In this document: positions 5,622 to 33,419 of the stretch, piece after piece
Layout of the letters: every line of letters begins with the position of its first letter
How positions within the stretch are numbered: position 1 is the stretch's first letter
Assembly: GCA_002099625.1 (NCBI GenBank)
Contig: GCA_002099625.1_4857.1
DNA length: 64,000 bases
Strand: one strand, 5' to 3'
Source: Escherichia coli
GTDB taxonomy: Bacteria > Pseudomonadota > Gammaproteobacteria > Enterobacterales > Enterobacteriaceae
Position numbers and translations under genes: made by a program
Notes under the pieces: generated by a model
The model's database searches: none
Told to the model about the DNA's origin: nothing
The model's input: the letters and a program-made list of their open reading frames with translations, nothing else

Positions 5622-5643
5622 CAGAAAACGTTCGGAGTATTAA

Positions 5644-6531: not shown

Positions 6532-6553
6532 AAATATACTGGAGCAACCTGCA

Positions 6554-18061: not shown

Positions 18062-19060
18062 TTACTCCACTAACTCGATAACGAATGCGTACAAACCGAC
18101 CTTCTCAGCACTGTCAATTAACGTAACTTGGGAGAGGTTACGTTTCGACGTATTGGTTATACTTGAATCGATAGGCGCAGACCCACGAACCAGAACTAAT
18201 CCCGATTCAGGATCACGTTCCTGGCACAAGAAACCTTTGCCTTGGTAAGCGCCACCGCTCCCATAAATGGACGCTGGACTAATATTAGTCCAGTTAGGGA
18301 GCATTTGTTTGTTAGGGATGCAATCAGCGAACGGATAAACAAAGTCGTTATATTCGCAGCGACCATATTCCAAGTCATCATGGTCTGCGTTTCGTAACGA
18401 TTCATCCAACGTCATTACTGTCGGTTCGTCCCCGTCGGTTAAACCGCGCAGCAATCGCATCCGATAGGTGTCGCCTTGCCATTCAAACAACCCACTCTGG
18501 TCAACACCTGCCAGATCCCCACGTCCGTTATCAGGACCAAATCCGTCTACGCCGTATACAAGACCCGCGTTATAAATGTCATTCCACGAGTAAAGTGTAG
18601 AGTTAAATCGTCCGCCGTTGTACATCATGTAGTAAACTTTACCATGACGATAAAACTTGTTCATGATTAGCGTGCCCGTGCCCGATATCCCTGTTAATGC
18701 ACGAAAGCCTGCAGGCAACGCGTCATAGGTCATCTGTTCTTCGAACGGCAACTGCCCCAGAAACGCCAAGTCGTCAGTATCGGAATAGTTAATCTGGTCG
18801 ACGCCACCCACACCACGACGGTTTTTAATGACAATGGATTTTTGTGGACTACCTACGGTACGACCGTTAACAGTTACTGTTAAAAGATACCAGTAACGGG
18901 TGTTAAGAATAACGGTTTCGTCCGTCCATTCCGTTTCGCCATTACTTAAAGTTGCAATAGGGGCTGGTAATGCGGCTGTATTTATTTTAGCCGTGCCCCG
19001 ATAAATGTTAACAATTGAACCTGCCGGATTTTCATTTTTCCAGCGTAGTGTGAAAGCCAT
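18062..19060 (-). CDS. fibre cassette 3, gene b (330-aa family)
   Basis: 332 aa; N-terminus MAFTLRWKNENPAG...ATLSNGETEW nearly identical in pattern to 21427-22416 and 24872-25870. Confidence 0.65.
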   Translation of the reverse strand: MAFTLRWKNENPAGSIVNIYRGTAKINTAALPAPIATLSNGETEWTDETVILNTRYWYLLTVTVNGRTVGSPQKSIVIKNRRGVGGVDQINYSDTDDLAFLGQLPFEEQMTYDALPAGFRALTGISGTGTLIMNKFYRHGKVYYMMYNGGRFNSTLYSWNDIYNAGLVYGVDGFGPDNGRGDLAGVDQSGLFEWQGDTYRMRLLRGLTDGDEPTVMTLDESLRNADHDDLEYGRCEYNDFVYPFADCIPNKQMLPNWTNISPASIYGSGGAYQGKGFLCQERDPESGLVLVRGSAPIDSSITNTSKRNLSQVTLIDSAEKVGLYAFVIELVE

Positions 19061-19070
19061 CTGTTACTCC

Positions 19071-20513
19071 TTAGAAGCCGTTCAACTCACCGTTCGCGGT
19101 TGCTAAATCTGTTTTAAGTGGAGGTTTTGCCTGAGTAGGCGGTAGTGGACGCGGTGCGTCGACGTGTGGTTCAAGTACAACCATCGGCCTAACTGTACCT
19201 ACGCTGTTCGACACTGTCGATAACGGCAGCGCAGTATCGACGTTTGGTTCACCCACCACAATCGGGCTGATAGGTTCTTCCACCTGTTCCGCAGTTGTTG
19301 CTAGAGGTCTCGGCGCATCTGTTGTCGCAACCACGACTGCAAGAGGGCGAATGCTATCAGGTTGTGGTGATGGTACATTAGGAATAACCCTAACGCGCCA
19401 CACAACATCCCCTTCCACATCAGCTAAAGGTAAGACGATGTCGTCCTTATTGATTTCCTCTAAAACAGGCCACCAGTAAGTGGTATCTGTAAGGGTTACC
19501 CATTCAACTGAGCCACCGCGCATATTGCAACGTTGTACTTTAACAGGGTTACCCCCGGTTAACAGTTGTTGCGTGAAGAAGACGGTGGTTCTGGTTAACG
19601 TGGTGTCATTTGCCCAGTCGCCGCCCGTAGAACCGTCACCGAGTTGTGAAATAAGCCACAACGGTGTGGCCTTTGATAAATCAGGGCTAACCGGAACGGA
19701 GACGCGGTAATAATGCGTCTTGTTATTCTCAGTTTTCGTGACAATCAAAGCCTGGTCAACAGGTTCGATACCGTCTGGATACGGACCAGCGTCACCTGTA
19801 CCGAAAATGGCACCCGCTTGATAAAGGGCCGTCCAGGTTGCTGTTAACGTTCCGGTAGTCGGTAGATAAACAATCTTACCATCCTTGAAAAATTTCAACC
19901 ATTCGAAAGTCATTTTCGTTGGGGCAACATCAGGACGAATTAGGTTGTTTAGTTCAGCAAAGGTAAATAACTCTTGCTGAGAAACGTGGCCGAAGTATCC
20001 GTTTGTGCTGTCCCCTGCCAACAAATATTTATTGCCTGGCCCAGAATCTGGATAGTAGCCCACGGCTTCATTCAAATAATCGACCGGGATATAGCCGCGA
20101 TAGCATACGCTATTATACACGGTTAAATTAATACGTGTTGGCGTTGCCAGCGATTTGATAGGCGCGTCTACCGACTGTACACTGCTATCAGATAACCAAA
20201 CACCGTATAAATCGCGTAGAGCTGGGAGAAGATCCCGCACGGTCTTGGCCGTTTGTGGTACGTAGATGCGCGGAGCTATTTTAAATAGATCTGATAATGT
20301 TAAACGGTCGTAATAAACCGTGCACTCCCCAGAGAAACCTTTACCGGGTTTTCCTACCAACGTAATTACCGTGTTACGACCATTCTTAGTGGTCTCGGCA
20401 GGAATACCCCTCACCCCAATCGAATCAGCGCTGATTCTTCCTGCGAGTTCAGGGTTATCCCTTACGACTTGCTGGCAGAGTAATTCCAGTTCGGGTGCGC
20501 TATACAATCCCAT
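19071..20513 (-). CDS. fibre cassette 3, gene a (480-aa family; N-module, Pro-rich C-terminal repeats, C-terminal NGELNGF)
   Basis: 480 aa; N-terminus MGLYSAPELELLCQQVVRDNP...GRNTVITL...TVYYDRLTLSDLF; C-terminal repeats VDAPRPL; ends KTDLATANGELNGF. Confidence 0.65.
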   Translation of the reverse strand: MGLYSAPELELLCQQVVRDNPELAGRISADSIGVRGIPAETTKNGRNTVITLVGKPGKGFSGECTVYYDRLTLSDLFKIAPRIYVPQTAKTVRDLLPALRDLYGVWLSDSSVQSVDAPIKSLATPTRINLTVYNSVCYRGYIPVDYLNEAVGYYPDSGPGNKYLLAGDSTNGYFGHVSQQELFTFAELNNLIRPDVAPTKMTFEWLKFFKDGKIVYLPTTGTLTATWTALYQAGAIFGTGDAGPYPDGIEPVDQALIVTKTENNKTHYYRVSVPVSPDLSKATPLWLISQLGDGSTGGDWANDTTLTRTTVFFTQQLLTGGNPVKVQRCNMRGGSVEWVTLTDTTYWWPVLEEINKDDIVLPLADVEGDVVWRVRVIPNVPSPQPDSIRPLAVVVATTDAPRPLATTAEQVEEPISPIVVGEPNVDTALPLSTVSNSVGTVRPMVVLEPHVDAPRPLPPTQAKPPLKTDLATANGELNGF

Positions 20514-20524
20514 GAAGTCTCCTG

Positions 20525-21424
20525 TTAAGGCAGAACGAGTTCAAGTACCGCAATGGAGCGTATTGTAGTGGTACCGTAGTTACTCCACGACGGCGACTCA
20601 GGGTAAGGTGGACGGTTGTACCACTGACTGGACGTGTTATTCATAGCCGCAAAGAATGCAGATTGTTGGGCAGTAACCGAATCGATTGGACCGACCGGAA
20701 GGTCGTCAAAGCGCGGAAACTGCCCACTGTAGTTGTACAGGCGCGCGAAGGTGTTAAACCACTCACCGTCGAGATACAACTCAGTGTTACCGCTTCCAAC
20801 GTAAGACGTCCAGTATTTGTAGTCGAACAAATACGGCAAGCGCACCACGTATTCGTAACCGTTCTTCGCCACCGTGCGGCGTTGGTTACGTGCAGTAGCC
20901 CAGCCCGGTACATATCCATTGCCATCCTGGCCGTACATCATCCCCTGGTTATAAATGAACTGCGGGCTAGCGTTTATTATCGAGTTATCGGACATAAACA
21001 GAATACGGTTTTTGTAAATGAATTTATGCCAGGCACCAACGGCGGAACTGAACATATTCACCACGAGGCCGTTCAGTTCCGTGTTAGTGAATAACTCTGC
21101 CGGCGTTACTGTTCCAAAGTATCCAGCGTGCCAGTCGCCGTATAACAGCTTCTGGGGGCCAGGCCCGGTGTCTAAAAAGAACCCTTGGGCGGTAGGGGTG
21201 TTGAAGACACGCTCACCGTCTTTAACCGCAGCTATCCAATAACGGTAAGTGGTGTTGTTTTCCACAGCGTTGTCTTCGTACGATGTAGCGTCACCCGGAA
21301 GGGTTGCCAGAGGCGTTCCCGGTGCATTAACATCAATGGTGGCGTTGCCAGGCGTCTTGCGATAGATTTCGATGTTATCGAGCGCCTGTGGCTTCCGTTG
21401 TGCAAAGTTTAATGTAATAGGCAT
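20525..21424 (-). CDS. fibre cassette 2, gene c (300-aa family)
   Basis: ORF 20525-21460 (apparently TTG start) trimmed to ATG 21424 preceded by GAGGA; start abuts the stop of the upstream gene. Confidence 0.65.
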   Translation of the reverse strand: MPITLNFAQRKPQALDNIEIYRKTPGNATIDVNAPGTPLATLPGDATSYEDNAVENNTTYRYWIAAVKDGERVFNTPTAQGFFLDTGPGPQKLLYGDWHAGYFGTVTPAELFTNTELNGLVVNMFSSAVGAWHKFIYKNRILFMSDNSIINASPQFIYNQGMMYGQDGNGYVPGWATARNQRRTVAKNGYEYVVRLPYLFDYKYWTSYVGSGNTELYLDGEWFNTFARLYNYSGQFPRFDDLPVGPIDSVTAQQSAFFAAMNNTSSQWYNRPPYPESPSWSNYGTTTIRSIAVLELVLP

Positions 21425-21426
21425 GA

Positions 21427-22416
21427 TTAATCCTCGATAAGCTCGATTACTGGAATCCAAATACCGCCCACGGTCGCACCAGGGACATGTTGTATACGCT
21501 GGAGGTTATCCACGGTATCAGTGGAATCCGCCGCCGCCCATCCGCGCGTCAGCCCCAACTTACTGTCTGGGTCAAACTCCTGACAATGCGCCCCACGGCC
21601 TGCCACCAGCGATCCGTTTCCGAATATGCTGGAGTTCGACCACTTTATCAGGGACATCACTTTTTTCTTTTCTGGGAACCAGCTACTTATCCCATAGATG
21701 AGTCGGTTGTATTCGCTATCGGCAGTATACGGTGACGCGTCATGGAGTTTACCGTTCCACTGTGCGTCGAGTGTCATGACCGGGCTTTCACTGTCGAGCG
21801 TTAACCCGCGCAGCAGGCGCATCCGATAGCGGTCACCCAACCACGTAAACTCCCCAGCCTGGTCAACGTCAGGTAAATCACCATGACCGCCTTCCGGACC
21901 AGGTCCCGCCACACCGTACAGCAAACCCGCGTTATAAATCGCATCACGGCTATACAGCGTGTTGCCGTTCACACGAAGACCACTAAACAGATACAGAATT
22001 TTACCGTCTAGCTGGAACTTCATCAAGCCCGGCTTAACAGTTGGGTCGTATCCAGAAAGGGCCACAAACCCTGGCGGATAATCACCCGCGCTAGGTAATT
22101 CACCGTACGCCACGTACCCGTAATACGCAAAGCGGTCATCACCGTACAGTGGAGCCACGATGCCGATACCGCGACGGTTCTGAATCAGAATTGATTTCTG
22201 CGGACTGAACAGTGTCCGACTTCCCACTGTCACGGTGGTCATGTAGTAATACGTTGTCCCCAGTATCGCTGTTCGGTCAGTATACTCAGTTTCCCCGTTA
22301 GTGAACGTTGCCAGGGGTTCAGGTAATGCCGTACGCACCAGAGGTTTGGTGTCGCGGTACAGCTTCACGGTCGAAGCCCCAGGGTTATTGTTCGTCCAAC
22401 GAATTGTAAAAGCCAT
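21427..22416 (-). CDS. fibre cassette 2, gene b (330-aa family)
   Basis: 329 aa; MAFTIRWTNNNPGAS...ATFTNGETEY. Confidence 0.65.
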   Translation of the reverse strand: MAFTIRWTNNNPGASTVKLYRDTKPLVRTALPEPLATFTNGETEYTDRTAILGTTYYYMTTVTVGSRTLFSPQKSILIQNRRGIGIVAPLYGDDRFAYYGYVAYGELPSAGDYPPGFVALSGYDPTVKPGLMKFQLDGKILYLFSGLRVNGNTLYSRDAIYNAGLLYGVAGPGPEGGHGDLPDVDQAGEFTWLGDRYRMRLLRGLTLDSESPVMTLDAQWNGKLHDASPYTADSEYNRLIYGISSWFPEKKKVMSLIKWSNSSIFGNGSLVAGRGAHCQEFDPDSKLGLTRGWAAADSTDTVDNLQRIQHVPGATVGGIWIPVIELIED

Positions 22417-22428
22417 TGTCGTTACCTC

Positions 22429-23925
22429 TTATTGGAATCCATCCAACTCACCGTTAGTATCGCCCAGAGTAATTTTTGAAGGTTGGGCGATTTGGTCAGT
22501 CGTGAGAATAATCGGTCTAATCTTAACGCTAGCCATACCTGTTACCGCGACGGAATATGCACGTTCATCATTGTCCGTCGTGGCAAGCAGAGGACGTGGT
22601 GAGTCTGATGACGCTTCCCGCACCCAGGCAGGGGTGGCAGTTTCGGTGTTGTCGGTGTTGAAAACTAACGGACGTGGATTCGCTGCGGCGGAGGTTTCCG
22701 TAATAGGCACCACACGAAGCGATTCATTTTGGTCGATGTCCGTCAGAGTAACCACGGACGGTGCCCATGTTAGTTCTGCACCTTCGTCAATCAACGGCAC
22801 AGGTTCATTGGCAATATCAAACATCTCCAGGATTGGCCAAAAGCCAGAAGAGGTGTAGATGTAGGTGTTTGAACGATAGCTCCCACTGATAGACTGGTAA
22901 TACGCTTGGTCGGCACCGAACTGGTGTCGTAACCACACGTAATCCAGGAAGTTAGCATCAGTCGTGCTAAGAGTTCCCCATTCCCCATATACGTTCACCG
23001 ACCCCAATTTGCTGGTCAGTGACAGGATAGAGGTGATTGACGGCGGTTTACTCCAATCAGGCGCGGCGGCGTTCTCGGTGTAATACGGGATAGACATTCT
23101 GAAATAATGCGTTCCTTCATCATCCCGTTTTACCATGTATTTCAACTGTTCAACATCGACAGGTGTGTAAGTCGACTTCGGGCGAGGTCCTGCGTCTCCG
23201 GAATCAAATATTGCACCCTTGTTGTACAGGTCTGCCCAGGTAACGTTGCAAATCGCACGGGTCGGAACAAACACTACCGCCCCATTCAGAAAGAATTTGA
23301 GCCACTTGATAGCGTAGCGGTTAGGCCAGTTGGTGCCGTTATAAAGGGCATACACCATTTCATCAGATGTGAATAACTCTTCCGCGCTTACCAGCCCAAA
23401 GAATCCGTATAACTCATTACCAGCCATTAATCCTTTTGGCCCAGGACCCGACTTCGGATACATCGCAATCGGTTCGTAAACATAGGTCATCTTGCATGAC
23501 CCGGTATAGCACAAGGAGTTAGCGTGCGCCGTCAGAGTTACAGTTTCCGGCGTAGCGTATTTCATTAATGCAACGTTTGGACTGGTGATATCACTCGCGG
23601 TTAAGTTCAACCCATTCAATTCATTGAACGCCGGTAACGCTTCCGCATGGGTTTGTGCGCTACGTGGAATACTCACCATATTCGGGCCAGACTTAAATAG
23701 ACTGGCCAGATTCAACCGGTCGTAATATACCGTTATTTCCCCAGCAAATCCTTTACCGGGTTTTCCTACCAACGTAATCTGTGTGTTTCGTCCGTTAACG
23801 TTTCTCGCAACAGGAACACCCCTGACCCCAACGGAGTCAGCGGTGATTTTTCCTGCTAAACTGGGATTGTCACGCACAATTTGTTGGCAGAGCAGTTCCA
23901 TTGAAGGTTCTGTATACAACCCCAT
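22429..23925 (-). CDS. fibre cassette 2, gene a (480-aa family)
   Basis: 498 aa; N-module MGLYTEPSMELLCQQIVRDNP...; C-terminus ITLGDTNGELDGFQ. Confidence 0.65.
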   Translation of the reverse strand: MGLYTEPSMELLCQQIVRDNPSLAGKITADSVGVRGVPVARNVNGRNTQITLVGKPGKGFAGEITVYYDRLNLASLFKSGPNMVSIPRSAQTHAEALPAFNELNGLNLTASDITSPNVALMKYATPETVTLTAHANSLCYTGSCKMTYVYEPIAMYPKSGPGPKGLMAGNELYGFFGLVSAEELFTSDEMVYALYNGTNWPNRYAIKWLKFFLNGAVVFVPTRAICNVTWADLYNKGAIFDSGDAGPRPKSTYTPVDVEQLKYMVKRDDEGTHYFRMSIPYYTENAAAPDWSKPPSITSILSLTSKLGSVNVYGEWGTLSTTDANFLDYVWLRHQFGADQAYYQSISGSYRSNTYIYTSSGFWPILEMFDIANEPVPLIDEGAELTWAPSVVTLTDIDQNESLRVVPITETSAAANPRPLVFNTDNTETATPAWVREASSDSPRPLLATTDNDERAYSVAVTGMASVKIRPIILTTDQIAQPSKITLGDTNGELDGFQ

Positions 23926-23938
23926 GGCTTTTACTCCG

Positions 23939-24862
23939 TTACGGTAAGACTAATTCGAAAGCAAAGAAAATTGTTACAGCAACACCCACTCCTGATGAGT
24001 TGGTAATCCCCGCCGGGGCATAACCGTACGCATAAGCGAAAAGGTTGCTGTTCCATAAAGGAGCTAGCACGGCTGCACCTGTTTCGTTAGGCTGGGCAGT
24101 TGAACCTTGCGGCGGTATTGAATCGATGGCACCAAGACCAATAGGCGGGAACTGTGCACCGACAGGATACAAACGGCCCATTGTGTTTCGCCATTCGCCG
24201 TTGTTGTAATCCTGTCCTGAGAGAGCCGCGTCGTACGGGACTGCGTAAGGTAATCGGATACGGTACGTACGACCATCCTTCGTGACCTTACAATCTTGTT
24301 TAGTCGCCGTGGCTCCCTGCGGGACTATGATCCCGTTATCATCGGTCCCGTACATCATCCCGTACTGATACGCCATCTGTACCGAGTTGGTTTTCGAATG
24401 CATCGTCGCTGGGAAGAAGACAATTCTCCCACGGAAAATAAACTTGTGCCATTCCTGAGGGTCGTAGGTAAACATGTTTCCCTGCTGCGCAGTTAACATG
24501 AGTTTTAACTCGGCAGTATTAAAGAACTCTGTATTCGGTACTGTACCGAAATAACCTGAAGCCCAGTCACCTCGCAAAATAGTTTGCGGTCCCGGTCCAG
24601 TGTCTGGATAGAACCCTTGCGTAATCGGATTGCCGATAAGTCGTTCACTGTCTTTTACAGCAGCTACCCAATAACGATAAGTTGTATTCTTCGTCAGAGT
24701 ATCAATATCGTCTACGAACTCTACCGCGTTGCCTGATAAAGTTGCGTGGGGCGTGCCTGGATTGTAAACGTCGATTGTTGCGTTCCAACCTTCCTTGCGG
24801 TAGATTTCAATCGCGGTAAGACCTTTGCTGGCTTGGGACGGCCAGCTTAACCGTATAGTCAT
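23939..24862 (-). CDS. fibre cassette 1, gene c (300-aa family)
   Basis: 307 aa; ATG start; family motifs as above. Confidence 0.65.
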   Translation of the reverse strand: MTIRLSWPSQASKGLTAIEIYRKEGWNATIDVYNPGTPHATLSGNAVEFVDDIDTLTKNTTYRYWVAAVKDSERLIGNPITQGFYPDTGPGPQTILRGDWASGYFGTVPNTEFFNTAELKLMLTAQQGNMFTYDPQEWHKFIFRGRIVFFPATMHSKTNSVQMAYQYGMMYGTDDNGIIVPQGATATKQDCKVTKDGRTYRIRLPYAVPYDAALSGQDYNNGEWRNTMGRLYPVGAQFPPIGLGAIDSIPPQGSTAQPNETGAAVLAPLWNSNLFAYAYGYAPAGITNSSGVGVAVTIFFAFELVLP

Positions 24863-24871
24863 GACTGCCCC

Positions 24872-25870
24872 TTACTCGACCAGTTCAAAGATAGGGTAGT
24901 AACGCCCTTTCGTGGTGGGTGATAAATAGTTTATACGCTGAATCGCTGATACGGGTGTTCCACCGGCATTGTTAAAGATACCACGATGGAGCACACGGTC
25001 TTCCGCGGTGTCGTGTTCCATACAGAGAACTCCGGCACCGAAATACGTTGCCGAGGTTCCCAAATTAGCCTGTCCCAGATAAGTATAACCGATTGTTGCC
25101 CAGTTAGCCCAACGTTGTTTCTTCGGCACCTCGTTAACCATCGTGTAAAGTAAATCGTTATACTCGCACGGGTTGGTTAGAGAAGCGATTTCATCGTGGG
25201 TTTTCCCATTGTAGTCAGCCACGAAAGGATACGCAGGAGACTCGCTAGACGTCGTCAGGCCGCGAGGAAGACGCATAATGTACGTATCCCCTTTGTGGAC
25301 TATCTTAGCGTCTTGTGGAGTGGCCGGTAGCGTTCCATGGCCGTTCTCTGGGCCAGCATCGCCTGTACCATAGACTAAACCAGCTTGATAGAGGGAAGCC
25401 CAGTCCACAGGCGTATTCGGGAACTGCGACGTATTAGATAGCATGTAATAGATCTTCCCGTTTCGGGTAAATTTATACAACGCCACACGATCGGTTAATA
25501 GATTAGGGAACATCGCCAAAAATGCAGGTGGCATTTGCGACGGAAGCCATTGTTCGTCGTAAGGAACCGCACCCATAAACCCTAAACGGTCGTTACCGTT
25601 TAGAATAGTCATTGGGCCAATCCCACGCTTTATCTCAATGGTGTATTTCTGGCTAGACGATGCCACTGTTTTACCGTTGGCGGTTACCGTCAGAAGGTAA
25701 TAATAGGTTGCGCCTGGTGCGGCGGTGGTATCACGCCATTCTGTCTCGCCATTTGAGAGCGTTGCAATCGGTTCAGGCAAAGCGCTCGGTGTGATATCTT
25801 TAACGTCACGGTAGATTTTTACTACCGTAGAGATTACGTTTGGATTTTTCCAACGCAAAGTAAAAGACAT
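24872..25870 (-). CDS. fibre cassette 1, gene b (330-aa family)
   Basis: 332 aa; MSFTLRWKNPNV...ATLSNGETEW. Confidence 0.65.
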   Translation of the reverse strand: MSFTLRWKNPNVISTVVKIYRDVKDITPSALPEPIATLSNGETEWRDTTAAPGATYYYLLTVTANGKTVASSSQKYTIEIKRGIGPMTILNGNDRLGFMGAVPYDEQWLPSQMPPAFLAMFPNLLTDRVALYKFTRNGKIYYMLSNTSQFPNTPVDWASLYQAGLVYGTGDAGPENGHGTLPATPQDAKIVHKGDTYIMRLPRGLTTSSESPAYPFVADYNGKTHDEIASLTNPCEYNDLLYTMVNEVPKKQRWANWATIGYTYLGQANLGTSATYFGAGVLCMEHDTAEDRVLHRGIFNNAGGTPVSAIQRINYLSPTTKGRYYPIFELVE

Positions 25871-25881
25871 GGATGATACCT

Positions 25882-27294
25882 CTACTTAAAGCCGTTCAGT
25901 TCACCGTTAAGAGACGTTAACGATGTCTTGTCGGGTGGCGTATACATTTCAGCGGTAGCCGCAATGGGTTGGAAGTCGACTGTCTTCGGCAGCATTAAAG
26001 CAGGCGGATGCAGTGCGAAACTGTTTTCTGAAGTAACAACTACCGGTTCGAAATCGGTAGTATCTGGATTACCGAGCACCAACGGCTTGAGACTAAACGT
26101 GTTTTCTGCGGACACGCTGCACGGTTGGAGACTGTAATCTACCGCACCATGGATATCTTCTAAACCCAAGGTAACTGTGGACTTATCCACCAACTCTAGC
26201 ACCGGGAACCAGTAGTAGTTGCCTGCGCTCGATGATTTTCCTAAGTTTGTCCAACTGGCTCCAGACAACGTCGCCATGCGATGATTGGCGACGTTGGTGT
26301 TCAGTGTATCTTTCAATAAACAGAACAGCGTCCAGTAACTGTTAATCGGTTTGTCCCACGTTCCATTATACAGAAAGTTGAACATCTCAAACTCACTACC
26401 TGCTAACTCAGCGGCAGTTGGGGTGCCGCTGACGTATGGGTCTTTCCCGGCACTAGGTAGACGAACACGGAAGTAAAACCTTTTGTTGTCTGCGCCTGTA
26501 AAGCTAATGATGCGTCCCTGGTTAACGGGCGTCGCCGCAGGGTATTTACCATTATCGTCTGTTCCGTAAACGAGTCCGTTTGTATATAACGTATTCCAGG
26601 AGATGGAGCTAGCGACAGGACTAATCGGGAGGTAAATAACCCTACCCTGGTAAAAGAACTTGTACCAACCTTCGGCACCAGAATGTACCGGTGGTAACGC
26701 ACCGGCCGATATAGTGGCATTAAGAAGTTGAGAGTGTGTAAACAACTCTGCAATTGTGGTTGTTCCGAAATAACCCGCGATAGTGTTACCTTGCAGCAAC
26801 GTTTTAGGGCCAGGTCCAGAATCGGGGTAAATTGCACCACTCGGGACGGTATAACGTATCGTTAAGCTGCCTGTAAACGCAGGGCAATTACCTGAGATAT
26901 TTAATTTCAACGTCTGCGGCGAAGCGCTCGGTTTAGGTAAACTTGCGTCAGGTGACTGCAAATCAGAAGCAACTAATGTAAGCCCCAATGCGTCGTTTAT
27001 TGCAGGTAGCGCGTCTCGTACCGTTAAGACTGTATCTTTGATAGCCACAGTCGGCACAAAATTAAATAAAGTGGCCAGGTTAATCCGGTCGTAGTACACG
27101 GTAACATTACCTTGTACACCTGTCCCTGGATACCCGGTGAAAACAGCTTTGGTGTTACGTTGGTTTAACGTAACTGAAGTTGGGCCGCTGGTTAAAGCAG
27201 CGATAGCCGGCGTCAGCTTAACAACTAAATCAGGATTATCCCGATTGACTTGGTCGTATACAAGCAGTGCCGACTCCTTCGAGTAAAATAGCAT
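25882..27294 (-). CDS. fibre cassette 1, gene a (480-aa family)
   Basis: 470 aa; N-module MLFYSKESALLVYDQVNRDNP...; C-terminus DKTSLTSLNGELNGFK. Confidence 0.65.
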   Translation of the reverse strand: MLFYSKESALLVYDQVNRDNPDLVVKLTPAIAALTSGPTSVTLNQRNTKAVFTGYPGTGVQGNVTVYYDRINLATLFNFVPTVAIKDTVLTVRDALPAINDALGLTLVASDLQSPDASLPKPSASPQTLKLNISGNCPAFTGSLTIRYTVPSGAIYPDSGPGPKTLLQGNTIAGYFGTTTIAELFTHSQLLNATISAGALPPVHSGAEGWYKFFYQGRVIYLPISPVASSISWNTLYTNGLVYGTDDNGKYPAATPVNQGRIISFTGADNKRFYFRVRLPSAGKDPYVSGTPTAAELAGSEFEMFNFLYNGTWDKPINSYWTLFCLLKDTLNTNVANHRMATLSGASWTNLGKSSSAGNYYWFPVLELVDKSTVTLGLEDIHGAVDYSLQPCSVSAENTFSLKPLVLGNPDTTDFEPVVVTSENSFALHPPALMLPKTVDFQPIAATAEMYTPPDKTSLTSLNGELNGFK

Positions 27295-27341: not shown

Positions 27342-28169
27342 TTAGCTGTTATAGTGGTAGTACGCCACGCCTTTCACGCCTTCCTCATCGATACCCGTTT
27401 GGATAACCACGCGGTCGTACGATTTGTTAGCGAACTGTGCGGTGGAAGTCGGCACATCCTGAACGGTGTTACTGTTCAGTGGCCCCGCGTAGTTCGGAAT
27501 ACCCAGGTCATCCAACACCTTACGCAAACCAGCCCACTGCGGTAGGCCAGAAGCATCTACTGTCAGTAGGTTTTTATACGCGGTAAAGTCAATACCGTAC
27601 GTCAACAAATCAATACACTTCTTACCGAGAGACGGTGAAATAGGCTCTTGAATCGCATTCAAGACATCTGATTTCACCGAAGTGTCTAGTACCGGTAAAC
27701 CACGGTTATAACGCAACGTCGCAGAACCGATATAAGCCGGAGATGTCGATAGCGCTGCAATGGTCTGTGTATTGGTGTAATTTGGGGTATTGGCACCCGC
27801 CAGTGAGTAGTTTTGGATATCGATTGCGGAGAAGTTTACTCCGTAGGTATCCAAGAGCACCGAAAAGGCTGAGTGGAGGTTGGGAGCGTCAAACGTGACG
27901 AACTGCGCCTGGACGGAAGGACCCCACGGCAATAACCGCGCTAAGTTCACACGGTCGTAGTAAACGGTGATTGCGTCTCGAAATCCGGAACCCTGAATAC
28001 CGCGCAAGCGTGCCGACGTATTGCGGTTGTTGGAAGCTGCATTAACGGGAACCTGTGTCACTTTCTCCACGTAGCAGTTTGCCGGCGACGCTTTAATAGG
28101 TAGGTTTGGGTTATCCCGGTTAATGAGGTCAAAGACCAACTCGTTTGACGGCTTAGCATAGTTGATCAT
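27342..28169 (-). CDS. approx 280-aa fibre-family paralogue 1 of 7
   Basis: ORF 27342-28172 (apparently TTG) trimmed to the adjacent ATG (28169), giving MINYAKPSNELVFDLINRDNP; module signature NRNT...VYYDRVNL. Confidence 0.6.
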   Translation of the reverse strand: MINYAKPSNELVFDLINRDNPNLPIKASPANCYVEKVTQVPVNAASNNRNTSARLRGIQGSGFRDAITVYYDRVNLARLLPWGPSVQAQFVTFDAPNLHSAFSVLLDTYGVNFSAIDIQNYSLAGANTPNYTNTQTIAALSTSPAYIGSATLRYNRGLPVLDTSVKSDVLNAIQEPISPSLGKKCIDLLTYGIDFTAYKNLLTVDASGLPQWAGLRKVLDDLGIPNYAGPLNSNTVQDVPTSTAQFANKSYDRVVIQTGIDEEGVKGVAYYHYNS

Positions 28170-28172
28170 CAA

Positions 28173-29060
28173 TTATACCTCGCTTGGATCGTCCAGATCG
28201 TTGAACTGGAGATACAACGTTCCGACGATGGTGGTACAAGTAACAGGCAGTTTCAACACCAGCGCATACTTGTACTTCGCGTTTGTCGGCATTGCAACAG
28301 GGTCATTCAAACCAACGCTGACAACCTCCGCGCCCGCCAAACCGTAGGAAGCGGAGGTGGTCGCTACCCATGCAGTACCCGTGATATCTTTCAGCAGGTT
28401 AACCATATCCGTTAACGGCTGTCCGGACAGAATACCCGGCACGTATGCCAGCAACTCATCACGGTATTTGGTGAAGTTGTACGGGTAGGAATAAACCTCT
28501 GCAATGACCGCAGTAACGGTTTCGGAACCCATCTGACCGTTCGGGTATTTCAGACCGGTCAGGACGTTAGTGGTGACTGCAGAGACTAACGACTCATCGC
28601 CTTTCACGACTTTAAATGTCGCCTGTCCAACCCAACCGATAGACTCAGGATGTGCAACAACACGCACAGTTCCTTCGGTCTTATCACCGTTCCATTCGAT
28701 ATCTGCGTCCTGCAGGTCAGCTTCTTCCAGAACAAAACCGTAACGTTGGTTCAGTCCAGGAATGGCCGCATACAAGGTTTCGTTGGATGGGCCGATCGCC
28801 AACGTGTCACCAATCAGCACTAACAAGTCTTCGATTTTCATGCGGTTGTAGAAGACATTTTTCTTACCCGACCAGGTAGAGCCCGTTACCCCATCTGCCG
28901 TAATTTTAATTTGCGTGTTACGGTTAGTCAGCGTTTCCTTCTCCGTACCACGGATGTCCTTTGGCGAGGACCAGATGATGTCAGTCATCTTAACAGCAAG
29001 CGAGTTCTGTGCGTTCACTGCTGCCAACAGGACGTCTTTAGAAGGTTGATAAATAGCCAT
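28173..29060 (-). CDS. approx 280-aa fibre-family paralogue 2 of 7
   Basis: 295 aa, ATG start; MAIYQPSKDVLLAAVNAQN...NRNTQIKI...FYNRMKIEDLL. Confidence 0.6.
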   Translation of the reverse strand: MAIYQPSKDVLLAAVNAQNSLAVKMTDIIWSSPKDIRGTEKETLTNRNTQIKITADGVTGSTWSGKKNVFYNRMKIEDLLVLIGDTLAIGPSNETLYAAIPGLNQRYGFVLEEADLQDADIEWNGDKTEGTVRVVAHPESIGWVGQATFKVVKGDESLVSAVTTNVLTGLKYPNGQMGSETVTAVIAEVYSYPYNFTKYRDELLAYVPGILSGQPLTDMVNLLKDITGTAWVATTSASYGLAGAEVVSVGLNDPVAMPTNAKYKYALVLKLPVTCTTIVGTLYLQFNDLDDPSEV

Positions 29061-29070
29061 TCGCTAATTC

Positions 29071-29910
29071 CTAGTTGTTGTAGTGCAACATACACTCGCC
29101 GATTACTTTCGGGTCGTTCTGAATGCCGGTAATCAGCAATACGTTATCGTACGCTTTATTGGCGGTCGCCAACTCACTCGTTTTGTAGCGGGTAATTGTG
29201 CAGTTCGTCGGATCAAACGACGGTACCCCACGTGCGACCAATGTGGCCATCAGATTGGACGTGTAACCCAAATCAAAGTTACTTCCTACGTCCATTCGTC
29301 CGTTCTTAAACGAGGCCATAACCTGCACTTCATCAGTAAAGTCTTCCCCGTACGTCAAGAAGCCCATGTATTTCTTACCAGTGCTTGCTGCTGCAGGGTG
29401 GTTCAAAGCCGACAAGATGTCGTTTACCACGAGGTCTTCGAGACTATTCTTACCCCGGATAGACATAAAGGTGATGCTGCCAGTGTATTGGATACAGCTA
29501 GCGTTAATACGCATCGTGTTGTTTACGTTCAGATAAACGTATTGTTCTGGGATATCGTCTGCAACCAGGTTTAATCCATAACGACCGTTCAGGTTCTGCG
29601 CAAACGCAGTACGTTTCGACTCCACGTTCAACCAACCGTAGGCATTCGGTGCAGTTACCTGAGGTGTCATGTTCTTAAATAAGTCGTTCAGCGACAAGCG
29701 CTTATAACGGAACGTCTGAGGACCGATATAGCCACGACCTTGACGACCACGAATGATAATCTCAGTATTGGCACCGCTTGCTGTCGGTGTGATTGCTTTC
29801 GGCGTACCGATGATAGCATTGTCTAAACCCATCGGTAGAACAGCATCCGGGTTTTCGGCATTAATCGCATCGTACAGATATTGTCGCTGAGACAGACTAT
29901 ATAAAGCCAT
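29071..29910 (-). CDS. approx 280-aa fibre-family paralogue 3 of 7
   Basis: ORF 29071-29928 trimmed to ATG 29910 preceded by GAGGAGG; MALYSLSQRQYLYDAINAENP. Confidence 0.6.
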   Translation of the reverse strand: MALYSLSQRQYLYDAINAENPDAVLPMGLDNAIIGTPKAITPTASGANTEIIIRGRQGRGYIGPQTFRYKRLSLNDLFKNMTPQVTAPNAYGWLNVESKRTAFAQNLNGRYGLNLVADDIPEQYVYLNVNNTMRINASCIQYTGSITFMSIRGKNSLEDLVVNDILSALNHPAAASTGKKYMGFLTYGEDFTDEVQVMASFKNGRMDVGSNFDLGYTSNLMATLVARGVPSFDPTNCTITRYKTSELATANKAYDNVLLITGIQNDPKVIGECMLHYNN

Positions 29911-29924
29911 AATAGCCTCCTCGG

Positions 29925-29967
29925 CCAAAAAAGAAAGGAGTAGCCAGGAGGAGGATTTCCTCCTCCC
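29925..29967 (-). terminator. rho-independent terminator inside the paralogue array
   Basis: GGAGGAGGA / TCCTCCTCC inverted repeat followed on the minus strand by CTCCTTTCTTTTTTGG. Confidence 0.5.
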
Positions 29968-29979
29968 AGCGAGGCCTAA

Positions 29980-30891
29980 TTAGGCATTAAAGTGCAGGTA
30001 CATGACGCCCTGGAAGTTGGTGCACAGAGTGTCATCCAGCTGCAGCAGCAGAACCTGGTTGTAAGCAGTGTTTGCACCTTCAACCGGTTTCTTAGGATCG
30101 TCGCCTGAAGCGGTGCCGTCGTCAGCAGTAGAACCAACGTACAACACGTTAGCACCTTTCAGGTTATAATCCGCAGGCTCATCAGATGCAACCCACAGTT
30201 CCGGCACAACTTTATTCAGCTCAACCGGGAATGCAGAGTCGCCAGCGATAACACCTTTCGTCTGTACTTTCAGGAATGCTGCGATTGCTGTGCAGTCTAC
30301 ACCGTAAGAGTAGATGTAACCCTGACCCTTCGCTTCGCTTGCACCATCTGGGTAAACCAGGCCGTCGAGCTTGGTTTGTGTTACCACCAGATTCAGACGT
30401 TCACCAACTTGAGGCTTAGCACCGATTTTAACCGGGATGCTGCCCAGATAAGCATAGCAGTCTTCTTTGAAGGTAATGACGTGGTCAACCGGTGCTGGGT
30501 CCGGATCGTTCGGGTTAGTCAGCGGCGGGTTGGTATTTTCCGGAATAGCCGCCGGAACGATATCGTCTTCGGTCAGCTTCAATCCGTATTGGGTGTTCAG
30601 GGTCGTCAGCAGGTCGGTGGTGGTTTTCGGCAGTTTAACGTCGAGGTATGCTGTTACATTACGGAACAGCGCACTGCCTTCCAGGCGATTATAAGTCACG
30701 TCCTGAGTACCGATGTACCCGGAGTTCTTTTTCGCAGTCAGGGTCATGCTGGTATTGCGATCGGCACCTCCATCGACAATAGGGGTCGGTGTGCCGAGCG
30801 TTATTTTAGAAAGTTCCAGTTCTGCGTCTGGGTTTTTCTCATTAATAAAATCCAGAACCAGCTGATCGGACGTTTTGTTTAAAGGTTTCAT
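29980..30891 (-). CDS. approx 280-aa fibre-family paralogue 4 of 7
   Basis: 303 aa, ATG start; MKPLNKTSDQLVLDFINEKNP...RNTSMTL. Confidence 0.6.
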   Translation of the reverse strand: MKPLNKTSDQLVLDFINEKNPDAELELSKITLGTPTPIVDGGADRNTSMTLTAKKNSGYIGTQDVTYNRLEGSALFRNVTAYLDVKLPKTTTDLLTTLNTQYGLKLTEDDIVPAAIPENTNPPLTNPNDPDPAPVDHVITFKEDCYAYLGSIPVKIGAKPQVGERLNLVVTQTKLDGLVYPDGASEAKGQGYIYSYGVDCTAIAAFLKVQTKGVIAGDSAFPVELNKVVPELWVASDEPADYNLKGANVLYVGSTADDGTASGDDPKKPVEGANTAYNQVLLLQLDDTLCTNFQGVMYLHFNA

Positions 30892-30912
30892 TCTTACTTC
30901 CTTTACTCAGGA

Positions 30913-31758
30913 TTAATCAGGGTCGTTGTAGTGCAAATACAAACGCCCGCCAAAATTCAGACAGTACAACGACAGCTCCACAATCAGCACGTTGTCGACT
31001 GCTGGGTTGGTTGGTAATTCCGCTTTGTTACGCCCGTTATAGACGACGACAGCTTCACGAAGGTTAAAGTCGATTGGGTTACGGTACGTTGTCCAGTTAT
31101 CACCGGTGACCGTTTTGAGAATCTGCGCCAGACGTTCTGCGGTTATCGCAGCACCTAGTCGTTGAAATTCCTCCGCGAAATTATCAAAGCGCCAGGGATA
31201 CGAATAAACTGCACCTTGACCGACCTTGATGTTGAAATACGGATACTCGTAAGGTGTCACTGTTAAGGGTTCGAAGTTTGCAGGAAGCAACGCATCGCCT
31301 GGTAACAGCTGTACCTGTTGTTGCCCTATCCAACCTAAAGAAGTGGGCGTGGCAATCAGATCCACACGCCATGTCTTCCTGTCGATTTCGGTATTCACCA
31401 CATCTGCGGGTTTAAGGCTGAGACCGTAATACTGGTTAATTAACCCGACCACGTCATGCATCTGGTAAACAGCGTCGAGACGTGCAGGAACACGTAGAGG
31501 TTGAATCCCGTCTGGGTCGGTAAACATGTCTGCGAAGTCAACACGATCGTAATACACGGTAGTGGCACCGATAGCATTAGCGGTGGCCAAAGCCTGAATG
31601 CGCACCATCGCGTTATGACCATTGGCTTTTGCCAGGTCTTCGTCAGACGTCGGTATCGCAGGGACACCGAAAACCACATCTTCGACTTTTAAATCGAGAT
31701 TGTTTTCGACGTTAACCTCCGCGATAATAATCTTTTCAGCAGTGGCTAAAAGTGGCAT
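30913..31758 (-). CDS. approx 280-aa fibre-family paralogue 5 of 7
   Basis: 281 aa, ATG start; ends LHYNDPD like family consensus (LH(Y/F)N). Confidence 0.6.
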   Translation of the reverse strand: MPLLATAEKIIIAEVNVENNLDLKVEDVVFGVPAIPTSDEDLAKANGHNAMVRIQALATANAIGATTVYYDRVDFADMFTDPDGIQPLRVPARLDAVYQMHDVVGLINQYYGLSLKPADVVNTEIDRKTWRVDLIATPTSLGWIGQQQVQLLPGDALLPANFEPLTVTPYEYPYFNIKVGQGAVYSYPWRFDNFAEEFQRLGAAITAERLAQILKTVTGDNWTTYRNPIDFNLREAVVVYNGRNKAELPTNPAVDNVLIVELSLYCLNFGGRLYLHYNDPD

Positions 31759-31768
31759 GTCAAAATCC

Positions 31769-32611
31769 TTATATCGGGAGATAGTGAAGGATGAGATTAC
31801 CGGCGTAGTTGCTGTCCGCAGCTAGCTTGATAATCGCCACACGCTGATAATCGGGGTTGTAACTATCGTTCGGTGTGACTGAAGTTATCCCCATATATCG
31901 TGCACCTTGAAGCGCAATTTGTTCAGGTTGCGCAGTCGCCCCCGTCACATATGCAAACTTTAATGGCACCACTTCGTTAAGCAATTCAACATCCGCCGCG
32001 GTGATTGCGCGGTTGTAAGCCCAATCGGTAGTGAACTGTTTTTGCAGTTCAGTCCAATCGTAACCATACGCCACATACTCAGCCTGTGGTTTACTAGCAA
32101 CCACGAACGGCGCGATGATTGCGCTGAGGTCAACATCCGTCACCACATCCGCCAAGTTCGGGAAGAACTTCGCAAAGCGTAAACGGAAACCACCTTGCCA
32201 GGCCAAGCAACCAGGCTTAATAGTCACATCGATTAACCAGCTTTCTCCCAAATCTTTTACTGACTGGTCAACGATATCGTCGGCAACTAAAGACAAGCCG
32301 TATTTCGCATTCAGAAACGGCAACAACTCAGAGAGTTTATTTACCGGGTCGGCAACGACTACCGGTATTACGTTCCTGAACAGAATTTCCATTTCGATAC
32401 GGTCGTATTCGAGCGTAACGTTGCCTTTGTAGCCCTTGCCGTTCAACCCGTATAAGAGCACACGCGTATTCCGGTCAGCGCCAGGCGTTTGGACAGACTC
32501 AGGGAAGCCAGTTGCAACCTGCTCCCATGTGAGTGGATTGGCCGTTAATCCGTTCTGTCGGTTAATAGCATCTAACAACATCTCTTTCGAGGGCTTATCG
32601 TAAATAGACAC
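31769..32611 (-). CDS. approx 280-aa fibre-family paralogue 6 of 7
   Basis: 280 aa; apparent GTG start preceded by GGAGGG; MSIYDKPSKEMLLDAINRQN...RNTRVLL...LEYDRIEM. Confidence 0.6.
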   Translation of the reverse strand: MSIYDKPSKEMLLDAINRQNGLTANPLTWEQVATGFPESVQTPGADRNTRVLLYGLNGKGYKGNVTLEYDRIEMEILFRNVIPVVVADPVNKLSELLPFLNAKYGLSLVADDIVDQSVKDLGESWLIDVTIKPGCLAWQGGFRLRFAKFFPNLADVVTDVDLSAIIAPFVVASKPQAEYVAYGYDWTELQKQFTTDWAYNRAITAADVELLNEVVPLKFAYVTGATAQPEQIALQGARYMGITSVTPNDSYNPDYQRVAIIKLAADSNYAGNLILHYLPI

Positions 32612-32621
32612 CTATACCCTC

Positions 32622-33419
32622 CTAGTTGTTAAAGTGTAGGTTGAGGGTGCCCTGGAAGTTCGTACATTTATCGGTCAGTTGCACTGACACGACTTTCGCG
32701 AACGCCGTATTTGCTCCCGGCAAGTCTGCAGGTACGCCGTCGAATACGACAGTGGCACCACGCAGGTTATACGGGGATGGGGTATCTTCAGCTACCCAAA
32801 TCTCAGGAACACATTTGTTGAGTTCGATTGCCAACGCCGTGTCATCTACCTCGATACCGACCGCTAAGAGGCTCAGGAAACGAGAGATGTGGCTACAATC
32901 GATGTCACGCGAATAGATATACGCCTGACCCAACTGGATGTCCTGGTGATCCGGGTACAGAAGACCGCTCAACTCTGTATTGGTTACTACTTCTGCCAGA
33001 GGTGTAGCAGGTTTCAGCTCGATGACCGCTTGACTTCGCCACTCGTGGGAAGTTTCAACAGCAACGACTGTGTGCGTCTGTCCATCAATGGGGTTATCTT
33101 CGATATCCTCAGGTAAGATAGACAGATTAAAACGCTCGTTAATCGCCGCGAGTAAGTCGTGCGTGGTTTGCACGTCCTCGTCTCCAAAGGCAACATCGCC
33201 TTTAAGGTAGTCCTCTAATGGACGACGATGGTAGTCCACAATCACTTGCGTACCTTCATCACCGCGCATCTTCGAGGTAAGGACTACCTCCGAATCACGA
33301 CCGTCTACTGACACAACCTCCGGCAGTCCGATATCAACATCGTCAAAGGTAAGCGGTGGGCTTATCTTATTCTCTTCGTTGATGAGTTTTAGCAGATTCT
33401 GTTTTGAAGTAAAAGACAT
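32622..33419 (-). CDS. approx 280-aa fibre-family paralogue 7 of 7
   Basis: 265 aa, ATG start; MSFTSKQNLLKLINEEN; ends LHFNN. Confidence 0.6.
   Translation of the reverse strand: MSFTSKQNLLKLINEENKISPPLTFDDVDIGLPEVVSVDGRDSEVVLTSKMRGDEGTQVIVDYHRRPLEDYLKGDVAFGDEDVQTTHDLLAAINERFNLSILPEDIEDNPIDGQTHTVVAVETSHEWRSQAVIELKPATPLAEVVTNTELSGLLYPDHQDIQLGQAYIYSRDIDCSHISRFLSLLAVGIEVDDTALAIELNKCVPEIWVAEDTPSPYNLRGATVVFDGVPADLPGANTAFAKVVSVQLTDKCTNFQGTLNLHFNN

What the first reader, a model, noticed from the sequence alone, without database searches (positions are those of the whole stretch)
19071..19115. Conserved C-terminal (K)TDL.T.NGEL(D/N)GF motif and nucleotide box at the 3' ends of four genes
Proteins 10047-10574, 19071-20513, 22429-23925 and 25882-27294 all end in T-x-NGEL(D/N)GF(x), preceded in the three large ones by Pro-rich repeats (VDAPRPL, DSPRPL). 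The DNA just upstream of each stop is also conserved (CCGTTCA(A/G)(C/T)TCACCGTT). A conserved extreme C-terminus on otherwise divergent fibre proteins could be a docking peptide, a chaperone or protease recognition site, or a recombination homology box for swapping upstream variable domains.
Basis: seen in the sequence. Interest (0 to 1): 0.5.

Follow-up and report, generated by a model that had tools for sequence, protein, structure and literature searches.

The report
Docking tail of phage filament proteins
The shared ending of four virion proteins of this SPN3US-like giant phage is the short linker peptide of the DUF7941 filament-protein family, most likely the plug by which one subunit clips onto the next. 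It is a family feature in a new arrangement, not a recombination or cleavage signal.

Summary
NGEL(D/N)GF occurs exactly four times in the six-frame translation, each time 0-1 residue before a stop, in four minus-strand genes. The window is about 97% identical to Salmonella giant phage SPN3US, and the genes are gp160, gp151, gp148 and gp145 of its 'paralog family B' (Pfam DUF7941). Profile-profile alignment places the motif on the interdomain linker of full-length DUF7941 paralogs (L-x3-V-T-x3-L-[DSN]-G-[LF]-x-Y-P). The four proteins keep the N-terminal domain and this linker but lack the C-terminal domain. In the three large ones, a lectin-like domain and a roughly 105-residue disordered tail rich in proline (16% in gp151) separate the two. 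[quoted passage not shown] The motif is therefore most likely a trans-docking plug; this step is inferred, not shown. The DNA box follows from peptide conservation: synonymous sites vary and shared runs are at most 12 nt. Published mass spectrometry reports no cleavage. The neighbouring radical SAM genes have their own CXXX-repeat substrates. Published proteomics finds these proteins in tailless heads, which conflicts with the baseplate model. This is a new variant of a recently described kind, of moderate interest.

The parts
19074..19115 (-). C-terminal plug peptide of gp151 (KTDLATANGELNGF; stop at 19071-19073). This is the feature flagged.
   Evidence: L477, G479 and F480 are invariant, and G475 and E476 are at least 90% conserved, in 27 homologues of 25-99% identity.
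10053..10094 (-). C-terminal plug peptide of gp160 (KTDLSTTNGELDGF, followed by V and the stop).
   Evidence: K161, D163, L164, S165, T167, G169, E170, L171 and F174 are among the most conserved columns in 60 orthologues. hhalign places the peptide on the DUF7941 linker.
22435..22476 (-). C-terminal plug peptide of gp148 (KITLGDTNGELDGF, followed by Q and the stop).
25888..25929 (-). C-terminal plug peptide of gp145 (KTSLTSLNGELNGF, followed by K and the stop).
10047..10574 (-). gp160 homologue (175 aa): a DUF7941 N-terminal domain plus the linker only. It is the high-abundance virion protein.
19071..20513 (-). gp151 homologue (480 aa): N-terminal domain (residues 1-148, 20070-20513), a domain with weak C-type-lectin-like matches (149-361, 19431-20069), a disordered Pro-rich tether (362-466, 19116-19430), then the plug.
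22429..23925 (-). gp148 homologue (498 aa), same architecture as gp151.
25882..27294 (-). gp145 homologue (470 aa), same architecture as gp151.
27342..33419 (-). Seven full-length DUF7941 paralogs (gp144 to gp138), each with N-terminal domain, internal linker and C-terminal domain. Their N-terminal domains are candidate sockets. Their internal linkers lie at 27651-27689, 28551-28589, 29404-29442, 30358-30396, 31249-31287, 32117-32155 and 32961-32999.
   Evidence: Their profile matches phiKZ gp127 (PDB 9xqd_0) at E 8e-23.
13466..16977 (-). gp155 and gp154 homologues: DUF7941 N-terminal domains without the plug. Both end in a different shared motif, PY[ST]K[TS]AP.PW. gp155 carries a GP38-like adhesin domain. 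They are candidate chain-ending units.

Best explanation
The motif is the interdomain linker peptide of the DUF7941 family (SPN3US 'paralog family B'). It is kept at the extreme C-terminus of family members that have lost the C-terminal domain. Full-length members consist of an N-terminal domain, the linker (L-x3-[VI]-[TV]-x3-L-[DSNT]-[GA]-[LIF]-x-[YH]-P) and a C-terminal domain. gp160 is the N-terminal domain plus the linker, ending one residue after ...ELDGF. gp145, gp148 and gp151 are the N-terminal domain, a middle domain with weak lectin-like structural matches, a disordered tether of about 105 residues, and then the same linker. I propose that the linker acts as a plug that docks in trans into the N-terminal domain (the socket) of another DUF7941 subunit, joining subunits head to tail into the flexible virion filaments proposed for phage Goslar. 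Because the four plugs are nearly identical, the abundant gp160 and the three lectin-like proteins would compete for the same socket type. The large proteins would then be cartridges spliced into a mostly gp160 and gp141 polymer. Socket-only proteins (gp154, and gp155 with its GP38-like adhesin) would end chains. Selection acts on the peptide, and the DNA box is a by-product. Shown here: the motif, its conservation, its homology to the linker, the fold of the N-terminal domain, and the disorder of the tether. Inferred: trans-docking, the choice of socket and the chain grammar.
Against: No dimer model or binding test could be run here, so trans-docking rests on the preprint's AF3 models and on homology. 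The AF2 monomer of gp151 does not place its plug on its own N-terminal domain; only residues 468-473 reach pLDDT 50 or more. In the gp160 monomer the motif is confident (pLDDT 82-88), which could equally mean that it packs in cis. A position-specific scoring matrix (PSSM) built only from full-length linkers ranks gp160's tail 12th of 74,083 windows, and does not rank the three large proteins' tails in the top 30. The upstream Leu is shifted by two residues relative to the linker consensus. SPN3US proteomics finds all these proteins in tailless heads at head/wild-type ratios of 0.9-1.7. That does not fit the baseplate-anchored filament picture of the preprint.
Confidence: 0.6

Rival explanations
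1. The peptide anchors these proteins to something other than a DUF7941 N-terminal domain. Candidates are the capsid surface, or the FN3-like N-terminal domains of the neighbouring module proteins (gp146/147, gp149/150, gp152/153).
For: Published mass spectrometry places gp145-155 and gp160 in tailless heads. gp160 at more than 300 copies is of the order of one per hexamer of a T=27 capsid. Each large motif protein is followed by two co-abundant module genes.
Against: The same peptide is an internal linker in seven full-length paralogs. It also occurs in gp83, gp237 and Goslar gp23, which have no module partners. Goslar gp22 polymerises without capsids. phiKZ gp127 sits at the baseplate.
Confidence: 0.15
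2. The motif is a cis structural element: the last segment of the N-terminal domain fold, packing back on its own chain, with no role in joining subunits.
For: The AF2 monomer of gp160 models residues 161-175 with pLDDT 82-88. The conserved hydrophobic residues L164, L171 and F174 would suit a core-packing role.
Against: In the three large proteins it lies about 320 residues from the N-terminal domain, after about 105 disordered residues, and AF2 leaves it undocked. The solved phiKZ gp127 N-terminal domain is complete at residues 1-150, and the segment aligned with the motif lies beyond it, at about residues 157-175. N-terminal domains of gp154 and gp155 exist without it.
Confidence: 0.12
3. 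The motif is a recognition or modification site. Candidates are the adjacent radical SAM enzymes (gp163/gp164), a chaperone (gp157, DUF1353) or a protease.
For: In CR5, Kwan and EarlPhillipIV the rSAM pair lies in a mostly co-directional block that ends in the gp160 homologue. The full-length rSAM has the same phyletic range as the NGELDGF form. The best published coverage of gp160, 91.9%, leaves 14 residues unseen, which is the length of its C-terminal tryptic peptide.
Against: The rSAM cluster has its own substrates. Three leader plus CXXX-repeat peptides are encoded just upstream, and gp163's best family match is the CXXX-repeat-target maturase. The motif and the whole of gp160 contain no Cys. 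Goslar has the linker but is absent from the phage records that match the rSAM. gp160 runs at its monomer mass in the lowest gel slice. The published table calls all four 'unlikely cleaved', and the motif lacks A-X-E. A C-terminal peptide without K or R is commonly missed by shotgun mass spectrometry (general knowledge).
Confidence: 0.05
4. The conserved DNA box is a recombination homology site for swapping upstream variable domains.
For: The box occurs at the 3' ends of four paralogous genes, 4 matches against 0.02-0.08 expected by chance. The modules are tandemly duplicated.
Against: Synonymous sites vary (GAA/GAG, CTG/TTG, GAC/GAT, GGA/GGC, TTC/TTT). Identical codons number 29 of 56 against 21.6 expected. 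The longest shared run is 8-12 nt even when the intergenic region and the next gene's start are included. The peptide stays conserved at 28-50% protein identity in other phages while the flanks diverge.
Confidence: 0.02

Closest known systems
Goslar gp23 and gp22 (DUF7941 filament proteins; bioRxiv 10.64898/2026.04.21.720040)
   Same: gp160 has the same architecture as gp23: an N-terminal domain plus the linker only, about 175-180 aa, and the most abundant family member. The linker motif is shared (...ADGFVKP against ...ELDGFV). The full-length paralogs in the window match gp22. Head-to-tail docking of the linker on the next N-terminal domain is predicted there, and gp22 filaments were seen by negative-stain electron microscopy.
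   Different: As read here, the preprint does not describe a conserved linker consensus or proteins in which a large folded domain and a long disordered tether separate the N-terminal domain from a terminal linker. Its multidomain members are described as an N-terminal DUF7941 module followed by carbohydrate-binding, hydrolase or LRR domains. It places the filaments at the baseplate, whereas SPN3US proteomics places the homologues in tailless heads.
phiKZ gp127 and gp126 (PDB 9XQD; Nat Commun 2026, PMC13250141)
   Different: phiKZ has only about three family members. Its linker (SLLTKVNSFPTIVKWP) is diverged, and no version ending at the linker was examined here. gp127 is located at the outer peripheral baseplate.
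SPN3US 'paralog family B' (Ali et al. 2017, PMC5694885; Scheuch et al. 2023, PMC10052503)
   Same: These are the same genes (about 97% DNA identity). They were already known as a family of about 20 virion paralogs, with gp160 and gp141 at more than 300 copies, and uncleaved.
   Different: Those papers give no function, call gp160 a possible head ejection protein ('Head ejection?'), and do not mention the C-terminal motif or the domain grammar.
Donor-strand complementation in chaperone-usher pili (analogy only)
   Same: It works alike in principle: a short terminal peptide of one subunit completes or occupies a site on the next, giving non-covalent head-to-tail polymers with specialised tip adhesins.
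   Different: The fold is unrelated. The pilus extension is N-terminal. No chaperone or usher is identified here. Strand insertion has not been shown for DUF7941.

Membership tests
DUF7941 (PF25613) / SPN3US paralog family B | Pfam PF25613 match above the gathering score (27 bits) | tested here: met
   gp160 scores 42.1 bits, gp151 78.8, gp148 105.1 and gp145 110.6. All matches cover only profile positions about 1-153 of 276.
DUF7941 (PF25613) / SPN3US paralog family B | N-terminal domain fold as in the solved phiKZ gp127 (PDB 9xqd) | tested here: met
DUF7941 (PF25613) / SPN3US paralog family B | Interdomain linker following the N-terminal domain | tested here: met
   hhalign puts the C-terminal motif on the linker columns (E 2.9e-13 overall). 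The tail-only alignment of the large proteins to gp160 gives E 1.6e-6. In the large proteins the linker is displaced to the C-terminus.
DUF7941 (PF25613) / SPN3US paralog family B | C-terminal globular domain ending ...LHYN | tested here: not met
   It is absent from all four proteins. HMM coverage stops at about position 150-170. This is the same state as Goslar gp23, which the preprint still counts as a member.
DUF7941 (PF25613) / SPN3US paralog family B | Head-to-tail oligomerisation through the linker | not testable with these tools
   Only single-chain AF2 is offered. Two monomer models were run. The claim rests on the preprint.
DUF7941 (PF25613) / SPN3US paralog family B | Virion-associated, some members in hundreds of copies | tested here: met
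   Read from published SPN3US mass spectrometry. No experiment was done here.
Substrates of the prohead protease gp245 | A-X-E cleavage motif with mass-spectrometric evidence of processing | tested here: not met
   The sequence ...NGE-L has N, not A, at P3. Published Table S6 calls gp145, gp148, gp151 and gp160 'unlikely cleaved'.
Radical SAM/SPASM-modified peptides (CXXX-repeat or ranthipeptide type) | Cys-containing core peptide next to the maturase | tested here: not met
   There is no Cys in the motif or anywhere in gp160. Genuine CXXX-repeat precursors lie at 4592-4984, 4995-5399 and 5415-5621.
Recombination homology box | DNA identity beyond what protein conservation explains, in runs long enough for homologous exchange | tested here: not met
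   29 identical codons against 21.6 expected; longest runs 8-12 nt.
Tail-fibre or tailspike C-terminal intramolecular chaperone (Peptidase_S74) | Pfam S74 domain at the C-terminus | tested here: not met
   No such Pfam hit. The C-terminal 119 residues of gp151 are predicted to be disordered.

The most novel reading that the evidence does not exclude
The near-identical plug on gp160, gp145, gp148 and gp151 makes three different lectin-like adhesin modules interchangeable cartridges on a common gp160/gp141 polymer. In SPN3US-like phages this self-assembling 'adhesin cloud' would be carried by the head or neck rather than the baseplate, since all its parts stay with tailless heads. Socket-only proteins (gp154, and gp155 with a GP38-like adhesin) would act as chain tips. 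That would be a peptide-in-socket grammar for building combinatorial host-recognition filaments on a capsid.
Probability: 0.2. Interest if true: 0.65.

Novelty: new variant of a known kind. Interest (0 to 1): 0.4.

Why it matters
DUF7941 proteins make up more than a thousand copies per particle in chimalliviruses such as Goslar. My rough estimate from published spectral counts puts SPN3US in the same range. They were given a proposed role only in 2026. Pinning the conserved 14-residue plug, and showing that it survives at the very end of proteins that lost the C-terminal domain or gained a lectin-like insert, gives a concrete and mutable handle for several questions: how these filaments are built, which subunits extend or end a chain, and how host-binding modules are recruited. 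It also exposes a conflict between the baseplate model (phiKZ, Goslar) and SPN3US proteomics (tailless heads) that a single cryo-ET experiment could settle. For phage engineering, a portable plug peptide could be used to hang foreign domains on virions.

Tried and rejected

(2) A position-specific scoring matrix (PSSM) built from the 30 full-length linkers was scanned over the six-frame translation. It recovers the seven internal linkers and ranks gp160's tail 12th of 74,083 windows, but not the three large tails. It is too weak as a stand-alone test.

(3) The AF2 monomer of gp151 was run hoping the plug would dock in cis. It did not: the tail has pLDDT below 50.

(4) Giant proteins with many DUF7941-like stretches (P0118, eight 'TKLDGL' motifs 153 aa apart) looked like covalently chained socket-plug units. 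On inspection they are N/K-rich, Spiroplasma-like repeats in which KLDGL sits in the equivalent of the N-terminal helix, so they were rejected.

(5) The radical SAM link was pursued because of synteny and rejected after cognate CXXX-repeat precursors were found.

(6) Covalent cross-linking through the D/N residue (isopeptide-like) was considered and rejected, because gp160 migrates at 18.5 kDa in the lowest gel slice.

(7) The literature was searched for the motif string and for filaments or 'hairy' particles in SPN3US-like phages. Nothing relevant was found.

Full report
**The observation**

A six-frame scan finds NGE[LIVM][DN]G[FYW] four times in the 64-kb window. All four are on the minus strand and end 0-1 residue before a stop codon.

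| Gene | Last residues | Motif coordinates |
|---|---|---|
| 10047-10574 (175 aa) | ...KTDLSTTNGELDGFV* | 10053-10094 |
| 19071-20513 (480 aa) | ...KTDLATANGELNGF* | 19074-19115 |
| 22429-23925 (498 aa) | ...KITLGDTNGELDGFQ* | 22435-22476 |
| 25882-27294 (470 aa) | ...KTSLTSLNGELNGFK* | 25888-25929 |

The Pro-rich repeats are clear in gp151 (16% Pro, eight x-x-[RKLE]-P-[LIMP] sites, seven of them about 11-16 residues apart) and weaker in the other two large proteins.

**What the genes are**

The region is 97.4-97.5% identical over 11 kb to Salmonella giant phage SPN3US and its close relatives, which are phiKZ-like phages of the genus Seoulvirus. By synteny the four genes are gp160, gp151, gp148 and gp145. 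All carry the N-terminal half of Pfam DUF7941 (PF25613), with E-values from 1e-10 to 1e-31. Seven neighbouring genes (gp138-144) are full-length DUF7941 proteins. gp154 and gp155 also begin with the domain.

In the SPN3US literature these genes form 'paralog family B', about 20 virion proteins of unknown function. gp160 and gp141 are present at more than 300 copies per particle. Published mass spectrometry of tail-less 255(am107) particles finds gp138-155 and gp160 at head/wild-type ratios of 0.9-1.7. True tail proteins give ratios of 0.07 or less. The same study lists all four motif proteins as 'unlikely cleaved' by the prohead protease. They are therefore not established tail fibres.

**What the motif is**

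In the seven full-length paralogs, and in 23 more from phages Kwan, CR5 and EarlPhillipIV, a conserved segment lies between the N-terminal and C-terminal domains: L-x3-[VI]-[TV]-x3-L-[DSNT]-[GA]-[LI]-x-[YH]-P. Examples are LAEVVTNTELSGLLYP and LNLVVTQTKLDGLVYP.

- hhalign of 60 gp160 orthologues against those 30 proteins is colinear from residue 1 to the last residue (Prob 98%, E 2.9e-13). It lays KtDLStTnGELdgF on that linker.
- The gp151/148/145 family aligns to the gp160 family in two separate pieces: the N-terminal domain (E 3.6e-8) and the last 52 columns (E 1.6e-6).
- The two other short family-B proteins of SPN3US end the same way: gp83 ...LAQLVTKRALDGFRPGEFLNG* and gp237 ...LITVTELNGLVYDVSDMAQA*.
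- So does Goslar gp23...LATVLADNVADGFVKPTVSVVG*.
- A profile search of 1.84 billion representative proteins returned 172 relatives. Of the 83 that are 140-200 aa long, 56 carry [LM][DNSTGA]G[FLYW] within their last 16 residues. The rate elsewhere in the same proteins is 0.004 per 16 residues.

The motif is thus a family-wide element. In the four window proteins it is terminal because the C-terminal domain is missing.

**Structure**

- AF2 models gp160 with mean pLDDT 93.9; the motif itself scores 82-88.
- Residues 362-480 of gp151 have pLDDT below 50, apart from 468-473 within the motif.
- In 27 homologues of 25-99% identity the tether varies freely, but L477, G479 and F480 are invariant and G475 and E476 are at least 90% conserved.

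This is the pattern of a short linear motif held on a flexible tether.

**Mechanism (inferred)**

[quoted passage not shown] This includes gp23, which lacks the C-terminal domain. It shows filaments of purified gp22 by negative stain. It also fits a gp126-gp127 head-to-tail dimer into unexplained density of the phiKZ outer baseplate, where the phiKZ atlas places the gp127 N-terminal domain. The window's full-length profile matches phiKZ gp127 through the linker and C-terminal domain (E 8e-23).

I therefore read the motif as the plug that docks into the N-terminal socket of another subunit.

- gp160 would be the minimal chain extender. By spectral counts per kDa scaled to the capsid protein it has roughly 500 copies (my rough estimate).
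- gp145, gp148 and gp151 (roughly 20-60 copies each) would be extenders that carry a lectin-like domain.
- gp154 and gp155 have a socket but no plug, and gp155 carries a GP38-like adhesin domain. They would end chains.
- In CR5 the gp155 homologue does carry a plug-like end (...DLSKAQDTLDGFKK*), so this grammar is not fixed across phages.

**Rival explanations**

- *Recombination box.* At positions with the same residue, 29 of 56 codon pairs are identical against 21.6 expected from local codon usage. E, L, D, G and F codons all vary. The longest shared run is 8-12 nt, even across the stop codon, the intergenic region and the start of the next gene.
- *Protease site.* There is no A-X-E motif, and published data report no cleavage.
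- *Radical SAM target.* The rSAM pair is syntenic with gp160 in CR5, Kwan and EarlPhillipIV and has the same phyletic range. However, three leader plus CXXX-repeat peptides are encoded immediately upstream. gp163's best NCBIfam match is the 'CXXX-repeat target' peptide maturase (E 3e-36, below the family cut-off), followed by PapB. gp160 has no Cys. One loose end remains: the best published coverage of gp160, 91.9%, leaves 14 residues unseen, which equals the length of its C-terminal tryptic peptide. That peptide lacks K or R and would ionise poorly anyway.
- *Covalent cross-linking.* This is unlikely, because gp160 runs at its monomer mass.
- *A cis-packing role, or another partner such as the capsid or the FN3-like module proteins.* These cannot be excluded with the tools available.

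**An unresolved conflict**

phiKZ gp127 is at the baseplate, and the Goslar preprint proposes baseplate-anchored filaments. SPN3US proteomics keeps nearly all family-B proteins with tailless heads. Only gp237, and at trace level gp122, behave as tail proteins. Either the filaments are attached to the head or neck in this clade, or free polymers co-purify with heads.

**Verdict**

The feature belongs to a family whose role was proposed only in 2026. What is new here is the explicit plug consensus and its retention at the extreme C-terminus, in three cases after a lectin-like insert and a long disordered tether. I rate it a new variant of a known kind, with interest 0.4.

Noticed in passing
window 4592-8789 (+): 4592-4984, 4995-5399, 5415-5621, 5644-6531, 6674-7468, 7461-8789: This looks like a phage-borne RiPP-like cluster. 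Three ORFs encode a conserved leader (MAISIKDVRNR...) followed by Cys-rich CXXX-repeat cores (for example ...CSGGCGGSCSANCSGACSGGCSGR*). They are followed by gp165, the rSAM gp164 and the rSAM/SPASM gp163. gp163's best NCBIfam hits are the 'CXXX-repeat target' peptide maturase (E 3e-36, below cut-off) and PapB. Homologous 69-aa peptides precede the rSAM pair in Kwan, CR5 and EarlPhillipIV. The annotated SPN3US_0166 (window 5068-5403) appears to be the wrong reading frame of the 4995-5399 ORF.
   Followed up: partly
window 13466-15643 and 15658-16977 (-): The gp155 and gp154 homologues share a different conserved C-terminal motif, PY[ST]K[TS]AP[VK]PW..P, which is also in CR5_143. gp155 has two DUF7941 N-terminal-like repeats plus a Pfam GP38 (T4 adhesin, Gly-rich) domain, yet is reported in tailless heads. 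In CR5 its homologue ends with a plug-like ...DLSKAQDTLDGFKK* instead.
   Followed up: partly
window 17156-27294 (-): There are three tandem three-gene modules: gp145-146-147, gp148-149-150 and gp151-152-153. The middle domain of the large protein is paralogous to the C-terminal domains of the two smaller ones, which carry FN3-like N-termini and end in ...ELVE or ...ELVLP. Spectral counts within a module differ by up to about threefold, which does not exclude a hetero-oligomeric (possibly pseudo-trimeric) lectin-like head.
   Followed up: no
window 21065-21103 (-), and equivalent sites in gp145-153 such as 19941-19979: A linker-like sequence (PAELFTNTELNGL; general form ELFT..ELN.L) lies inside the folded GPGP...GYFG domain. 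It scores as high as true DUF7941 linkers in the PSSM scan (22.0). In the gp151 model it is a confident helix. This could be chance resemblance or a relic of the ancestral linker.
   Followed up: no
window 43245-45290 (-): A 681-aa ORF carries a DUF7941 N-terminal domain at its C-terminal end (residues 516-661) after a large domain. Only 61% of the 42700-46500 stretch matches SPN3US, whose gp122 is listed at 18.8 kDa. It would be a socket-only protein with a different cargo, next to the tail genes gp123 and gp124.
   Followed up: partly
window 9980-10010: A strong GC-rich hairpin (GGTACCTACCTCCC-TTCG-GGGAGGTAGGGCC) flanked by T and A runs lies between the convergent genes gp161 (+, ends 9965) and gp160 (-, ends 10047). 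It is probably a bidirectional terminator.
   Followed up: no
literature versus window genes 10047-33419: The published sources conflict on location. SPN3US proteomics keeps DUF7941 proteins with tailless heads (ratios 0.9-1.7), whereas phiKZ cryo-EM and the Goslar preprint place the family at the peripheral baseplate. Only gp237, and at trace level gp122, behave as tail proteins in SPN3US.
   Followed up: partly
phage database records LR5359xx (SPFM phages), proteins P0077, P0079-81, P0088, P0099-100: Several SPFM phage records contain scrambled versions of these genes, with segments of gp151 and gp148 in permuted order. These look like assembly or annotation artefacts and were excluded from the alignments.
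   Followed up: no
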